From Girardia tigrina (taxonomy: Eukaryota), in assembly GCA_001938485.1 (NCBI GenBank), contig MQRK01241630.1, forward strand, positions 23,707 to 77,648: 53,942 nt of DNA. Direction: 5' to 3'. Shown here piece after piece: positions 44,646 to 50,600 of this stretch. The position numbers are program-made. The number at the start of each line of letters is the position of its first letter. Within the stretch, counting starts at the first letter, position 1.

Positions 44646-47600
44646 ACCCATTTTTATATATATATATAAAATTTTTTATTAACATTTTTTTTGATATATT
44701 TCCATTTTCATTTTTCACAATTTAAATGAGAATTTTAATTCATTCTGAAACAATACATAATAATTAAATATACTAAAATGATTACATAAATTATTTATAA
44801 TAACACAAAAACATTTTGTTTTAATTAATAAAAAAAATTTGGTGCTGGTTCAAAAAACAAGTTGTTCTTCAAATATATATTAACCCATTAACGCCGAACG
44901 GGAACATTCGTGCCCAGCTAATAAAAATGGCTGTAAAAGTAAAGACATAGCATTTAGCTATGTTTCGTTGATAAGGTGTGTACTCTGAAGGTTCAGAACA
45001 CATACGGAACATGTTTTGTTTCTCTGTCACCAGGCATGCATGCGCAGTAGCCGGCTGAACTTGACCAAGAAAAGAGTGTATGTAACATTACATCATAATC
45101 ATCAATAATTCTCGGCATTAATGGGTTAATTTCATCTTTATTCATTAATTGGTTCTCAGTCCAAATGGATGACGAATGTCCAAAATGGAAAGTATTCGAA
45201 TGTCACTCGTTGGTGATTTGTGAATTGGAGACTAATAGCCCCACAAAATGGTGTTTGTTTAAATTATTGTCAATGACAATTTGTCATTTAACGTTGTTAA
45301 TTGTAGAAAATTATAATTTTTCAATTATTTGACATGTAAAAGTAGAAAAATAATTTATCAAGATTGTCATAATAATATGGATAATAAATATGTGATTCTA
45401 TAAACTAGTAAATATGCTAAAAACTTGTGTTTATAAAATGTAAAAAGACGACCTTATTTGAAGACGTAAATATAAAATAAAATGAACCTAAAATATTTGC
45501 AATTTATAATTTTATTATCGAATATCATTTTTTTATTTTTAATTTTGATAATAAAATTATTAATTTTTAGTAATGGTTAATACGTTTATCTATTTCATTT
45601 ACAATAAAATATGATTGCAAATGTAGTTTGGCTCACAAAAACTAAAAACGTTCTGTTATTTAAATGCTAAGTCAACATACTTTAAAGGACAAAAATTTTA
45701 AATTTCATTTTTTAATCCCTTGCACCTACATTAGTCTCTTGACACTGGTGTTCTTTGCATTTGAGATCATAATGATCTATACGCACAATTGTTTCATTGA
45801 AAAACCAAGATACTTCTGAATTTACAATCAAAATCATTCTCTTATTTTAAAAAAAGTATAAACATGCAAAATTTAGGCTACAAGCTCTCTAAATTTGGCA
45901 TCCATTGACATTCCTTCTGAAATTTATTATCGATATCCATCTGGTGGAACCCTTGGCATAAGCATTTTTAAATTGGACAGGAACCCGTGTCTCTGCGATA
46001 TTTTAGAAAGAGAAGAATTGTTTTTCATTTTGCATGTCGGTTGAAAAGGGCTTTTCATTTTATTGAACAAAATATTCAGCGGAATCCCATATCGTTTACG
46101 CAATTCAAATGTGGCGATATCGCAACCGAGAAAATGATGACACGCATCTTTATCTGCCTGGAAAACTTCGAGTGATAGCGCATTCTTTATCGATGTTATG
46201 ATGAATTCAGGCACCAATTTTAAATTGGCTGAACAAATGACTTTGAGTTGTTCATCTTTATATTGGCTTTTAACTTCATGTCCGAATTTTTCCCACATTT
46301 TTATTATTTTTTTAAATTTATTTCCATATATTTAAATCGCCGTAAAATTATTTATTTAAATTGAATTAAGAGAACTCCTTTTTGAAAACTTTTATTTGAC
46401 ATTTAAATTGAAAATTGAAAATTTTTCACCATTTTTTTACAAACCTTTTTTTGACTTTTGATTGCAATTCACAATTAAAATTAACACACACACATAACAT
46501 ACACACCTTCAGTCAATCCCAGTTCATTTTTACATATCATACTTTAACACACACGCAACCCAGACACTCACACCTACACACATAAACATGAAACATACAC
46601 TTACCTAAATCAAATTACATAATTACATTAATCCATTGGCGGAGAGAAATAAAATAAAAATGAGGCTCACCATCGCTGATCTGTTTAATTATATAAATAT
46701 TATCGATTGATAATGTATTTTTTCACTTATAGATTATTGCCTCCTTTTACTCGGAAACATTATTTCACTCTCATTCGAACTATTAATTATTTATTTAAAT
46801 TATTTATTTTATTTATTAATTTTTATTTAATTTATTTATTTTATTTAATCATTTTTCCTAATTTAATCAATTATTTGTTCATTAATTATATATCTTATTT
46901 ATATTTACTGATACTGGCAAAAATGTTCGGTCAAATCAACAATTGTTGGGACTATTCATTGCACTGGCACCGAGGCAGGCGATGGAAAAACTCCCTAAAT
47001 ATAAAAAACAAAAAATAAAACATTATAATGATAATTTATAATTAATTAATTAAAAAATAGAAACTTTTAATTGGTTTTGACCCTTGGATCCTGTTGATTT
47101 GAATATTTTCTTGTGAGAATTTGATGGCCTGATTTGTTGACGTGGGTTTGATTGGAATTTTGGCCATCTCCGGGTTGTTTCTACCTGAGGACTATTGACT
47201 TAGTGATGGATGATTGAAGGTTGACTGTGAGAATTAACTGCTTGCTGGTTCTGTGAGTTTTTGTGACGAAAGATTGGTATAAATTCATCCGAATTTGTAC
47301 ACTTGATCAGACTTTTTTCTTTGAATAAATTTTATTTGAAAAGATTTGTTTTGTTCTTAGGTAATTTTTATTTTTTTTTTGAAAGTTGATGGAGGTTTGA
47401 GAGCACATCAAGGCTGCCGATCTGTCGATAGATAACGGTAGGGGCTTATAGTTCCTGCCGAGACTATTGACGATCAGGTAGGGAATATGAACAGGTTGTG
47501 AGGTAATTTGATGACTGCCGATCTGTTAATAGATTAACGGTAGGTGCTTATAGTGCCTGCCGAGACTATTGACGATCTGGAAGTTTGAGAAAGTCCTTGC

Positions 47601-50600
47601 CAAGTTTCATTTCTAGAAGAGAATTCGTTTCTCTCAGCCTCCACCAATTATTCTTTTTGTTCTTTTATTTTTTTTAATTCACTCATCGTCCTTATTCAGC
47701 ATGGATAGAACATATGAAACCAAAAAACAACACAGAGAACTGCTGCTGGAGTTGCAGAAGTGGAAAAGCGAATGTGACAAGCTGAATGATGAATTAACGA
47801 AGAGGACACCCGAATTTGAGGACTACAGAAAGAATTCCGTTCCTCTATCAATTCACAAAACCGGTTGTGGACAAATATTTGCTAGGACAACAAAAAATAA
47901 AATCTTTGCAAAACGAGGTCACCGAGATAAGAATTCAACAAAATATGTCTAACTACTACAAGAAAGTGATCGAAAAGGTTTCAGAAGAGCAAGCAGAAAT
48001 AATTATAGAAACGGCAAACAAAATCGGATCACATACAGAGAAGAAGCCTCTGGTGACGAACCCGAACATTTATGGGTCAATTATGAAAGAGGATATGACA
48101 TCATCTTCCTCTGGGGTGCTCAGCAGATCTCAGAAGCGGCGGGAGCAGAGGAAGCGAAAGGCTCAAATGTTTCAACAGGCCAAGAATGAGCTGCAAGCTA
48201 TTTTTAAAACCAGTCGTGTTGAGGCTGACGTCCAAGATGGAAAGACGATAATCAGAAATGACACCAGTCAAAGAGAGTCTCCTGATTTTGATACCTCGCA
48301 TCAAATTTCGCTGCTTTTTCCAACATATAAATTTCAAGAGACTATTGAACAACAAGAATGGCTGGACTTTAAGTCAAAACTTGAATTTCAGAAGGAGATT
48401 CGTGACTGTTTACAGTTCCGATCTATCACAACTGGTCAGGGTGAAGAATTTATCAATTTATCAGATTTGGATGATTAGGGACGATGGGTGGATTGCCTTT
48501 GATTAGTTTTTCTTTTGTTATATTTTAATAAAGCAATGTAAACATATAATTGGTTCATGTTCTTTTAACTTAAATCTCTGATGTAAAAATGATAAACTTA
48601 TAATAAGAAATATAGTAATCAAATAAAAAAAACATGTTGAGGAAAAAATAAGATGATCATTAATTAAATAGAAGTCGCATAAGCCGACTTTCATAGACTT
48701 AATATATTTAAATATAATGTAGAACCCAATAGGTACTTCATCGACTTCACTGGCGAGATAAAAGGGCCAGATGAGGTTGATGGGGTACGATATGAATCTC
48801 NNNNNNNNNNNNNNNNNAGACACTTACCGGAGAGACATATCTAAATAATATGTTGGGTCAAAATAAACTAAGATGCTAAAGCATAACATGAAACACACAA
48901 ATTTGAATTAATAAAATTAAAATAATAATATAAAATCCAGTATTAATAATATCACACCCAACACAATTCTCCGCTCCATAAATCATTTGTGAAATAATCT
49001 CTATTAAGCTAGCTTTCGGCTGTGGAAGAGTAGTTGGAATTCATTTGGTACATTTATATCAAACATTCAAATTAACGAAGAACGTGTTGCTTTGATCAAC
49101 ATTAATTTTTAATTCGGTAATGTGTATTAAAATAAAAATGATTATTTTTTTGTGTGCTTACAGTATAGGACTATTAAAAAATCTAAATTCTGATGTTTTG
49201 TTTATCTTTTCCTGTAAATTGTGATGTGAAAAATTATTAAATAAAGAAAGGTTTAAAAAAATAATTAAAAATTAAAATTGCATTTTAAAAATTTTGAAAC
49301 TAATTGAAAAAGTAAGAAAATTGTTTTGATGTCTTCGTAAATTTGAGAGAAATCGTTTGAAGGAACAAAATTATGTTGGATAGAGATAAATTTGTGGAAA
49401 AAGAAAACATTTTCTATGACAACACTGTACATGCGGAATACGTCAAATAATTTTACCAATTTGTAAATCGTCTGATACAGTCGTTTCTCTGGGGTATAAA
49501 ACACTGGGTTGGGAATCAAAAAAATTTCATTTTCCTGATGCTGGGTTGACGCTAGCCTTGATTGTTTTTTCAATGAACTCGGAGATGAAATCTTTGCAAT
49601 GAAAATTGATAGATTGTGTGATTTGGTCATAGTGGAGTGGTTGTTTGCAGATTTTGAATGTCGATTAAACAGTGAGATAGAATTAGTCATTGTATGCAAT
49701 AGAAAAAGATACCAATACAGGAGATAGTGCTGTAAAGCTACGTTGGAATTTAGGGAGACAGTAAATTGCCTATTTACTTTATCTCCAAGGTGAAAACCAC
49801 AATTCCTTAAAGTATTTAAACAAAGAATTAATAAACAATAATTGGAGAAATTTAGTAGTACAAATAGACCATTTATTCACTAATTAAACATGCTAAAAGC
49901 TACACCAAATAAGATTTACACAGACATTTAGTTCATTCACATGTAAAACAAAAAATACTGTATGCACTGCGGATTTCAAAACATGATTGTAAACGATGTA
50001 CATCAATCTTACTGTACTTTACGATGCATACTTGAAGAAGTCCATTATTTTCGTTTGTTTTTTCACCTTTGTCATCTCCATCAACACGTCTTCATTGATA
50101 TTCGAAAATGTACGTAAGTGAGAATCAGTGAATCCTGGATGAGTTAGTAAGAATCGTCATACTACTTGCAAAGCCTGCATTGTTTCCTTGAGCGTAGAAA
50201 CAACAGGGACATCAGAATCATCAATATAATCTTCCTCGACCACGTCTAAGATCTCTGTTGACTAAACAAGGCCATCTAGTATTTCCATATTAGTCAATCC
50301 TACAGTAGTAGGTAAGATTTTATAGGCCTGCACAAATTGTTCGAAATTTACATCGGCTGGTATCTGAATGAATTCACGCAAATGCTCGAAGATATTGTTA
50401 GGTGTTGATTGTGGTTGCGGTTCTGGAACGAAACACGGATTTAATGTTGGAACATCGAAGCCAAAGTGTTTGAAACATTTTATGACAGTATCTTCAGATA
50501 CTGTATCCCAGGCTTGCTTCAGTAAAGTCTGAGCATCCAGCAGTGTAAATTTAAATTCCATGTTTTCAAACTTTCAAACAAAATTTTCTATCAAGCCTTA

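What the first reader, a model, noticed from the sequence alone, without database searches (positions are those of the whole stretch)
47386..47647. Two covarying ~68-nt RNA hairpins with an identical 22-nt 3' arm, closed by a long-range helix
Seen: copy 1 (47414-47481) and copy 2 (47515-47583) each fold as CTGCC-GATC-GTYRATAG-[A-rich loop]-CGGTAGGKGC-TTATA-GTKCCTGCCG-[AGA]-CTATTGAC-GATC-GGWAG. Differences in the two main stems preserve pairing (C-G to U-G, G-U to A-U, and a G-U/U-G swap); only the outermost basal stem gains a mismatch. The 22-mer CCTGCCGAGACTATTGACGATC is invariant and the spacer is unrelated. Several G-U pairs work only on the + strand, which points to RNA rather than DNA structure. 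TTGATGGAGGTTTGAGAG (47386-47403) can pair with CTCTCAGCCTCCACCAA (47631-47647), enclosing both hairpins. Inference: either a duplicated pre-miRNA cluster (an invariant arm with variable star and loop-proximal stem is the miRNA pattern) or a duplicated protein-binding RNA element. I do not recognise the 22-mer.
Basis: partly seen in the sequence, partly recalled or inferred. Interest (0 to 1): 0.75.

Follow-up and report, generated by a model that had tools for sequence, protein, structure and literature searches.

The report
Twin RNA hairpins upstream of gene
Two near-identical RNA hairpins of about 68 bases, which fold well on one strand only, sit just upstream of a small uncharacterised gene in an AT-rich invertebrate genome; they look most like a lineage-specific microRNA pair, but this cannot be proven from sequence alone.

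Summary
Two paralogous hairpins (47414-47481 and 47515-47583) fold far better on the + strand than on the - strand: -37.7 and -30.3 kcal/mol against -20.3 and -15.8. Their imperfections are almost all G.U wobbles. The copies differ by one G.U-to-U.G swap, two one-sided compensations and one break at the base of the stem. Similarity stops at the base of each stem.

An unchanged run of 22 nt or more arises by chance in 34-60% of simulations. An enclosing helix this good is matched at 6-12% of random loci once its position is left free, and it is strand-neutral.

No Rfam family matches, neither a miRNA family nor 7SK. There is no third copy in the window, and no related eukaryotic DNA could be reached.

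The pair lies 118-287 nt upstream of the start codon of an orphan 258-aa coiled-coil gene. It sits behind a T-rich tract that ends in a splice-acceptor-like site, so it is probably intronic or in an outron.

Best reading: a lineage-specific tandem miRNA-like hairpin pair (about 0.4). Rivals are a protein-binding structured RNA, including a 7SK-like reading based on a GAUC:GAUC helix between bulges, and neutral palindromes. Small-RNA reads or orthologous loci would decide.

The parts
47381..47406 (+). 5' strand of the enclosing (closing) helix: segments 47381-47383, 47384-47388, 47390-47397 and 47399-47403
   Evidence: MFE helices with base-pair probabilities 0.79-0.96. Duplex energy -24.3 kcal/mol on + and -24.5 on -. 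Weak after the free-geometry control.
47414..47481 (+). Hairpin copy 1: helices of 5+4+8+11 bp, two 1-nt bulges (47423 and 47476), a 4x3 internal loop and a 3-5-nt terminal loop
   Evidence: Energy -37.7 kcal/mol, z -7.8. The local fold shows no basal extension.
47419..47475 (+). GATC:GATC 4-bp helix of copy 1 (47419-47422 with 47472-47475), bounded by unpaired T47423 and A47476
   Evidence: probability 0.99. The motif comparison with the HEXIM site of 7SK rests on passages of PMC2995076.
47454..47475 (+). 22-mer shared by both copies (copy 1)
   Evidence: Its invariance is not significant.
47482..47514 (+). Spacer, not alignable to either flank of the pair; in the MFE it pairs with 47589-47614 to extend the stem under copy 2
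47515..47583 (+). Hairpin copy 2. The same architecture; the GATC:GATC helix is 47520-47523 with 47574-47577, and both bulges are T (47524 and 47578). It sits on an imperfect extended stem, 47487-47610
   Evidence: Energy -30.3 kcal/mol, z -6.3.
47556..47577 (+). 22-mer shared by both copies (copy 2)
47627..47653 (+). 3' strand of the enclosing helix
47654..47700 (+). T-rich tract (T5, T4 and T8 runs) ending in a splice-acceptor-like TTATTCAG|C one base before the start codon
   Evidence: Read directly from the sequence. The acceptor reading is inference.
47701..48478 (+). Downstream gene: a lineage-restricted coiled-coil protein of about 258 aa. The window copy carries one frameshift relative to its relatives; this may be an assembly error or a pseudogene
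   Evidence: P0001 is 89% identical; P0003 and P0004 are 46-49% identical. No Pfam, PDB or NCBIfam match. Only 8 relatives among 1.84 billion cluster representatives. An AATAAA lies at 48527-48532.

Best explanation
A lineage-specific, two-member cluster of miRNA-like precursor hairpins.

Proposed mechanism (inferred throughout): the + strand is transcribed by RNA polymerase II as the upstream, non-coding part of the primary transcript of the adjacent coiled-coil gene. That part is a 5'-UTR intron, or an outron removed by trans-splicing. Each hairpin is excised and diced into a duplex of about 22 nt, and the two paralogues supply guides that are identical or nearly so.

Shown here:
- two paralogous hairpins whose pairing is strand-specific and maintained by wobble pairs;
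- similarity confined to the hairpins;
- a position upstream of a splice-acceptor-like site next to the start codon.

Inferred: transcription, processing, which arm is the guide, and any target.
For: 1. Strand-specific folding and G.U-only imperfections.
2. One compensatory swap and two one-sided compensations among the 5 differences that fall in paired columns.
3. Similarity of 89.9% over 69 nt that ends at the stem bases, with flanks and spacer not alignable. This points to constraint on the hairpin itself.
4. At least 16 paired positions between the arms: 19 of the 22 positions of the shared 22-mer are paired.
5. In context, copy 2 sits on an imperfect stem of about 39 bp in all. This is compatible with the ~35-bp geometry of a Microprocessor substrate (the figure is recalled knowledge).
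6. A tandem, same-strand, intron-like location is the usual setting of paralogous miRNA clusters (established knowledge).
7. A third + strand-specific hairpin with a 22-bp stem and an 11-nt loop lies 1.2 kb downstream, at 48733-48788.
Against: 1. No Rfam miRNA family matches, even at E<=10.
2. Copy 1 has only 28 bp and no basal extension.
3. The terminal loop is 3-5 nt and the most stable helix is apical, which is atypical for canonical animal pri-miRNAs (recalled knowledge).
4. Reading the sequence, I saw no CNNC, basal UG or apical UGU motif at the positions expected if the 22-mer were the 3p product.
5. The 22-mer begins with C, and its 5' end lies in the GC-rich apical helix. The usual strand-selection rules (recalled) would favour the other arm, whose presumed seed differs between the copies.
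6. The invariance of the 22-mer is not significant.
7. With two sequences, covariation cannot reach significance.
8. No expression data and no orthologues could be examined.
Confidence: 0.4

Rival explanations
1. A cis-acting structured element of the adjacent gene's primary transcript. Two equivalent hairpins would act as binding sites for a (dimeric) RNA-binding protein that controls splicing, trans-splicing or translation of the coiled-coil gene.
For: - The whole hairpin is kept between copies: both arms, both bulges, the internal loop and the terminal loop (63 of 74 columns invariant).
- It lies 118-287 nt upstream of the ATG on the same strand.
- A 5'-splice-site-like GAG|GTAATT (47499-47509) is sequestered in a helix with probability 0.96.
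- If retained in the mRNA, a -108 kcal/mol structure with 3 upstream ATGs would strongly affect scanning.
Against: No protein partner or known motif was identified. No comparison with the upstream regions of the orthologous genes was possible, because only proteins P0001-P0004 and P0078-P0083 could be seen. The acceptor-like site next to the ATG suggests the region is removed from the mRNA.
Confidence: 0.2
2. An independent small structured non-coding RNA of about 270 nt with paired termini, possibly transcribed by RNA polymerase III. Its two hairpins would be protein-binding modules. The sharpest version is a divergent 7SK-like RNA that offers two HEXIM-type sites.
For: - Each hairpin has a GAUC:GAUC 4-bp helix lying exactly between its only two 1-nt bulges. 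[quoted passage not shown]
- 7SK has a proposed long-range 5'-3' helix, the 'circular' form (PMC10083321, passages). Here the termini pair.
- A T10 run ends 1 nt before the unit, and a T5 run starts right after it (6.9% of 15-nt windows hold a T5). There is no T4 inside.
- 7SK-like RNAs can be intronic (PMC8406779, passages). In flatworms only a tentative candidate has been reported (PMC2770079, passages).
Against: - Rfam's 7SK models give nothing at E<=10.
- There is no 3' hairpin between the closing helix and the T run, although SL4 is one of the two conserved parts of 7SK.
- The bulges lie 3' of each GAUC here. In human 7SK they lie 5' of it (U40U41 before 42-45 and U63 before 64-67).
- 7SK has one 5' hairpin, not two tandem paralogues.
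- The absence of T4 is unremarkable (1065 of 5000 shuffles), and the closing helix is weak evidence.
- The motif match was noticed post hoc.
- The promoter and the presence of HEXIM and LARP7 are untestable here.
Confidence: 0.15
3. No function: two copies of a short palindromic repeat (a miniature inverted-repeat element or a local duplication) inside a larger element bounded by inverted repeats. Its RNA-like features would be coincidental.
For: - The window is rich in repeats and inverted repeats. Hairpins of similar stability occur at about a dozen other loci, and these two rank 3rd and 6th among the 15 most stable loci.
- The enclosing helix is strand-neutral, like terminal inverted repeats.
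- T-rich direct repeats flank the unit (score 29; 27 of 4762 loci as good).
Against: - The flank repeat is unremarkable among T-rich pairs (8 of 108).
- No other copy or fragment exists in 54 kb.
- All imperfections in the stems are + strand wobbles, with no A.C or transversion mismatch in copy 1. That is roughly 0.5% under random decay (my estimate, inference). The G.U-to-U.G swap adds to this.
- The strand-symmetric palindromes of the same window look different.
Confidence: 0.15

Closest known systems
Tandem clusters of paralogous animal miRNA precursors (intronic or polycistronic)
   Same: Two same-strand hairpins about 100 nt apart. Pairing is maintained by wobbles and one compensatory swap. 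One arm segment is identical, the spacer is unrelated, and the setting is intron-like.
   Different: There is no match to any curated family. The stem of copy 1 is short (28 bp), the terminal loop is tiny and the apical helix is GC-rich. No processing motifs were seen and no read evidence exists. The shared 22-mer has features that disfavour loading.
HEXIM-binding site of 7SK snRNA (distal part of the 5' hairpin) and the 'circular' 7SK fold
   Same: A GAUC:GAUC four-base-pair helix sits between two bulges, pyrimidines in copy 2. A long-range helix joins the two ends of a unit of about 270 nt. A T run follows directly.
   Different: The bulges lie on the opposite side of each GAUC. The motif occurs in two separate tandem hairpins. 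There is no 3' terminal hairpin and no covariance-model match. The unit lies directly upstream of a coding gene.
Drosophila snRNA:7SK:94F (PMC8406779, passages read)
   Same: A structured 7SK-like RNA located in an intron and thought to be processed from a longer polymerase II transcript.
   Different: That RNA was found through similarity to both 7SK ends and keeps the conserved stems. The present unit shows neither.
Miniature inverted-repeat elements
   Same: A size of about 273 bp, imperfect terminal inverted repeats of about 24 bp, and T-rich flanks.
   Different: There is no significant target-site duplication and no second copy in the window. The internal hairpins are strongly strand-asymmetric.

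Membership tests
Canonical animal miRNA gene (criteria as used by curated catalogues; recalled) | Hairpin with at least 16 paired positions between the two arms | tested here: met
   27-28 bp per hairpin; 19 of the 22 positions of the shared 22-mer are paired.
Canonical animal miRNA gene (criteria as used by curated catalogues; recalled) | Stem of about 35 bp including about 11 bp below the cropping site, flanked by single strands | tested here: inconclusive
   Copy 2 in context has about 39 imperfect bp. Copy 1 has 28 bp and no basal extension.
Canonical animal miRNA gene (criteria as used by curated catalogues; recalled) | Flexible apical loop of about 8-10 nt or more | tested here: not met
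   The terminal loop is 3-5 nt on an 11-bp apical helix in both copies. A 'loop' of about 9 nt results only if dicing occurs inside that helix.
Canonical animal miRNA gene (criteria as used by curated catalogues; recalled) | Two 20-26-nt products with 2-nt 3' overhangs and homogeneous 5' ends | not testable with these tools
   No small-RNA data are available.
Canonical animal miRNA gene (criteria as used by curated catalogues; recalled) | Similarity to a described miRNA family | tested here: not met
   Rfam 15: nothing at gathering score. Nothing on the + strand over the hairpins at E<=10. miRBase and MirGeneDB are not available. The 22-mer in DNA letters is in 0 papers.
7SK snRNA | GAUC...GAUC short helix between two bulges in the distal 5' hairpin (PMC2995076) | tested here: inconclusive
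   The helix and two flanking 1-nt bulges are present in both hairpins. The bulges lie 3' of each GAUC, not 5' as in human 7SK, and the match was seen post hoc.
7SK snRNA | Conserved 3' terminal hairpin followed by the U run (SL4; PMC10083321) | tested here: not met
   Between the closing helix (ends 47653) and the T5 run (47654-47658) there is no room for a hairpin. The only nearby hairpin is a small predicted stem (3 bp in the MFE, probability 0.55), upstream of the closing strand.
7SK snRNA | Long-range pairing of 5' and 3' residues (M1/SL0) | tested here: inconclusive
   A helix is present but is matched at 6-12% of random loci.
7SK snRNA | Match to the family covariance models | tested here: not met
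   No 7SK or arthropod 7SK match at E<=10 in 47370-47670 or in 47100-47900.
7SK snRNA | Polymerase III type-3 promoter; HEXIM and LARP7 in the same genome | not testable with these tools
   No snRNA genes of this species are available for a promoter comparison, and the genome is not available.
H/ACA snoRNA | Two hairpins with large pseudouridylation pockets, an H box in the hinge, and ACA 3 nt from the 3' end | tested here: not met
   The internal loops are only 4x3 and 5x3 nt. No ACA follows copy 2. No Rfam match.
Miniature inverted-repeat element | Terminal inverted repeats, target-site duplication, many dispersed copies | tested here: inconclusive
   An inverted repeat is present. The flanking direct repeat is not significant among T-rich pairs (8 of 108). 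There is no other copy in 54 kb.

The most novel reading that the evidence does not exclude
The unit of about 270 nt (47381-47653) is an independent regulatory RNA whose two tandem hairpins each present a GAUC:GAUC helix between bulges. That would make it a highly divergent 7SK-type scaffold offering two HEXIM-like sites to a dimer, in an animal lineage where 7SK has not been securely described.
Probability: 0.06. Interest if true: 0.7.

Novelty: new member of a known kind. Interest (0 to 1): 0.35.

Why it matters
If the pair is a real miRNA cluster, it adds a lineage-specific family in a poorly sampled, AT-rich invertebrate clade. It would also be an example of hairpin birth by local duplication next to an orphan gene. 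That is useful for annotation but not surprising.

If it is instead a protein-binding scaffold with GAUC-bulge modules, it would bear on the open question of how far 7SK-type transcription control extends among invertebrates.

Either way, the locus is a clean test case. Its strand-specific wobble pattern shows RNA-level constraint, while the two most eye-catching arguments (the invariant 22-mer and the enclosing helix) turn out to carry little statistical weight.

Tried and rejected
**Family and copy searches**
- Rfam at gathering score and at E<=10: no family.
- A covariance model built from the two copies, run over the whole window with filters off, gave 17 matches at E<=10. Only the two copies score high (98.6 and 97.4 bits). 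The next matches are their own antisense (22.4 bits) and a generic palindrome at 16213 (19.7 bits).
- blastn of 47040-47720 against the window: only the two copies hit each other. Everything else is T-rich low complexity at 34.6 bits or less.

**More repeat units upstream**
- One marginal similarity: 47177-47235 with 47451-47508, 2 of 300 shuffles as good. The second comparison of that call was not significant (47 of 300).
- Four further comparisons that I had eyeballed were not significant: 155, 300, 180 and 133 of 500 shuffles as good. I reject the idea of a longer decayed array as unsupported.

**Other RNA classes**
- Polymerase III reading from the absence of T4 runs: not significant (1065 of 5000 shuffles; 209 of 5187 windows).
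- H/ACA or C/D snoRNA: rejected. There are no pockets, ACA or box matches, and the upstream C/D-like Rfam hits have E of 1.3 or more.
- RNase P/MRP, prompted by a GAAAGUCC-like 8-mer at 47588-47595: rejected. The 8-mer is in the wrong position in the RNA and there is no Rfam match.
- Mirtron: rejected, because the hairpin ends do not coincide with splice sites (read).

**Downstream protein as HEXIM-like**: no Pfam match at E<=1, no PDB match, no NCBIfam match, and nothing useful from the protein atlas.

**Taxon**: not resolved. The closest relatives are unnamed records.

**Literature**
- The 22-mer in DNA letters is in 0 papers.
- An 8-base T-free core combined with 'miR' is in 441 papers. The 40 listed looked unrelated by title and none was opened.
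- A second query was badly designed: taxon words alone satisfied it, and all 40 listed rows had 0 occurrences of the motif. It says nothing.
- The RNA-letter form was not searched.
- Three 7SK comparative papers (PMC5798955, looked up in two calls, and PMC2755741) are not held; Marz et al. 2009 was not sought.

**Related DNA**: two scans of bacterial and archaeal genome contigs, one with the 22-mer and one with the protein family, found nothing.

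
Full report
**Context**

The window is AT-rich; G+C runs from 0.22 to 0.40 in 2-kb steps. It is animal-like and gene-poor.
- It holds an intronless 598-aa membrane protein with leucine-rich repeats and an immunoglobulin domain at 3987-5783. 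Its best relative is 66% identical and unnamed.
- It also holds scattered mobile-element remnants and six N runs, which I left untouched.
- The species could not be named.

**The observation**

Copy 1 (47414-47481) and copy 2 (47515-47583) are 89.9% identical over 69 nt. The alignment has 63 invariant columns of 74. The 22-mer occurs exactly twice, with none expected by chance.

Each copy folds into one long hairpin:
- helices of 5, 4, 8 and 11 bp;
- two single-base bulges that flank the 4-bp helix;
- a 4x3 internal loop (5x3 in copy 2);
- a terminal loop of 3-5 nt.

| Unit | + strand (kcal/mol) | z | - strand (kcal/mol) |
|---|---|---|---|
| Copy 1 | -37.7 | -7.8 | -20.3 |
| Copy 2 | -30.3 | -6.3 | -15.8 |
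| 276-nt unit | -108.3 | -7.25 | -68.5 |

**RNA or DNA structure?**

- On the + strand, copy 1 has 5 G.U among 28 pairs and copy 2 has 5 among 27. The - strand folds have 1 and 0.
- Across 27 pairs in 2 copies, 53 of 54 cells are paired. There is one G.U-to-U.G swap, two one-sided changes that keep pairing, and one break in the basal helix.
- With two sequences the shuffle control is uninformative (253 of 500). The argument therefore rests on the direction of the imperfections, not on covariation statistics.
- A scan of all 69-nt windows (26,606 folds) ranks the two copies 3rd and 6th among the 15 most stable loci. Stable hairpins are thus not rare here.
- The strongest others (16213, 14137, 52117) are strand-symmetric palindromes. 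The two copies differ by 15-16 kcal/mol between strands.
- I conclude that a + strand RNA structure has been under constraint. The probability of this pattern under random decay, roughly 0.5%, is my own estimate.

**What does not hold up**

1. *The invariant 22-mer.* With 6, 7 or 8 differences placed at random in 69 columns, an unchanged run of 22 or more appears in 60%, 45% and 34% of 100,000 trials.
2. *The enclosing helix (47381-47406 with 47627-47653).*
   - It has high pair probabilities (0.79-0.96).
   - It is rare with fixed geometry: 2 of 7542 loci and 1 of 2000 arm shuffles.
   - It is equally stable on both strands (-24.3 and -24.5).
   - When any duplex between a 70-nt left flank and an 80-nt right flank is allowed, 246 of 4002 loci match it, or 227 of 1838 GC-matched loci.
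3. *Absence of T4 runs inside the unit.* This is unremarkable (1065 of 5000 shuffles).
4. *T-rich direct repeats on both sides.* These are unremarkable among T-rich pairs (8 of 108).

**Copies and relatives**

- A covariance model of the two copies finds no third copy in the window. blastn finds none either.
- One marginal similarity (47177-47235 with 47451-47508, 2 of 300 shuffles) hints at an older decayed unit. The second comparison of that call (47 of 300) and four further comparisons were not significant.
- Flanks and spacer are not alignable, so similarity ends at the stem bases.
- No Rfam family matches at gathering score or at E<=10.
- No eukaryotic DNA collection was available. Two scans of bacterial and archaeal contigs found nothing.

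**Setting**

- The pair lies 118-287 nt upstream of ATG 47701, the start of a coiled-coil protein of about 258 aa. P0001 is 89% identical; P0003 and P0004 are 46-49% identical.
- That protein has no Pfam, PDB or NCBIfam match and only 8 relatives among 1.84 billion cluster representatives.
- The window copy carries one frameshift relative to its relatives. This may be an assembly error or a pseudogene. One relative, P0083, is also out of frame.
- Between the unit and the ATG lies a T-rich tract ending in TTATTCAG|C, one base before the ATG. A donor-like AG|GTAATT lies at 47358-47365.
- I infer that the hairpins sit in a 5'-UTR intron or a trans-splicing outron. I built and joined no spliced model, so this stays an inference.
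- If the hairpins were retained, the leader would carry 3 upstream ATGs and a -108 kcal/mol fold.

**Mechanism: the leading reading**

The most likely reading (about 0.4) is a lineage-specific pair of miRNA-like precursors processed from that non-coding upstream part.

For it:
- strand-specific hairpins under constraint;
- tandem paralogy in an intron-like setting;
- 19 of 22 positions of the shared segment paired;
- a stem of about 39 bp under copy 2;
- a third + strand-specific hairpin (22-bp stem, 11-nt loop) at 48733-48788.

Against it:
- no family match;
- copy 1 has only 28 bp and no basal extension;
- tiny terminal loops on the most stable helix;
- no processing motifs where expected (read);
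- the shared 22-mer starts with C at the stable end of the duplex, which the usual loading rules (recalled) disfavour.

**Rivals**

- *A cis-acting element bound by a protein (0.2).*
- *An independent structured RNA of about 270 nt (0.15).* This includes the most novel reading. In both hairpins the 4-bp helix between the two bulges is GAUC:GAUC. That is the signature of the HEXIM site of 7SK (PMC2995076, passages; PMC10083321, passages). The ends of the unit pair, as in the 'circular' 7SK model, and a T5 run follows (6.9% of 15-nt windows hold one). Against this reading:
  - the bulges lie on the other side of each GAUC;
  - there is no 3' hairpin;
  - the 7SK models do not match;
  - the resemblance was noticed post hoc.

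  From passages of PMC2770079, only a tentative 7SK candidate is reported for schistosomes. I did not search further for flatworm 7SK beyond, which listed one paper that I did not read.
- *Neutral palindromes or a small inverted-repeat element (0.15).* This fits the strand-neutral outer helix. It does not fit the wobble pattern.

**Virus-like and mobile stretches (described only)**

- An isolated integrase-core fragment lies at 19041-19592 on the - strand (Pfam rve, E 3e-07, below the curated cut-off). Among the 88 open frames of 65 aa or more that I scanned, no reverse transcriptase, RNase H, protease or gag domain appeared at E<=0.001. I did not map its breaks.
- An open frame at 30134-30658 on the - strand is related to reverse-transcriptase/endonuclease proteins of non-LTR elements.

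**Verdict**

This is a real and probably functional + strand RNA hairpin pair. It is most likely a new member of a known kind. Its class cannot be fixed without small-RNA reads, transcript ends or orthologous loci.

Noticed in passing
window 48733-48788 (+): A third + strand-specific hairpin with a 22-bp stem and an 11-nt loop. It has 4 G.U in 22 pairs. It folds at -34.2 kcal/mol (z -5.5) on + against -22.9 on -. It lies about 250 nt past the stop codon of the coiled-coil gene and 12 nt before an N run. There is no Rfam match (best 14.6 bits against a gathering score of 90).
   Followed up: partly
window 47701-48478 (+): An orphan coiled-coil protein gene of about 258 aa, with a basic KRREQRKRKAQ-type stretch and an acidic C-terminus. 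Only 8 relatives exist among 1.84 billion cluster representatives, and no domain or structure match was found. The window copy has one frameshift relative to its relatives.
   Followed up: partly
window 19041-19592 (-): The virus-like stretch: an isolated retroelement integrase-core fragment (Pfam rve, below the curated cut-off). No other retroviral-type domain was detected in the scanned neighbouring frames. Described only; its breaks were not mapped.
   Followed up: partly
window 30134-30658 (-): An open frame related to the C-terminal part of non-LTR retrotransposon proteins. Its relatives carry reverse-transcriptase and endonuclease domains, and the best is 70% identical.
   Followed up: partly
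window 15967-17113 and 23986-24238: An open frame at 16253-16891 is framed by nested inverted repeats (arms of 63-78 nt, 83-94% complementary) and a near-perfect palindrome at 16169-16324. A second copy, 75-79% identical, lies 7.75 kb away. From memory its motif resembles the GIY-YIG nuclease of Penelope-like elements, but Pfam gave no match.
   Followed up: no
window 20522-20635 (-): A 5S rRNA match just above Rfam's gathering score (40.1 against 38 bits). It could be a diverged gene, a pseudogene or a 5S-derived repeat.
   Followed up: no
window 43996-44355 (-): An open frame with a weak tubulin GTPase-domain match (E 3e-06, below the cut-off), probably a decayed tubulin pseudogene fragment.
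   Followed up: no
window 27696-27911 and 29682-29897: Inverted repeat arms of 216 nt, 96% complementary, 1770 nt apart. This is the shape of a DNA transposon with terminal inverted repeats.
   Followed up: no
window 47353-47367 and 47495-47509: Two 15-mers, 13 of 15 identical, that both read like an exon end followed by a 5' splice site (AG|GTAATTT). The second is sequestered in a predicted helix under hairpin copy 2. This may be chance.
   Followed up: partly
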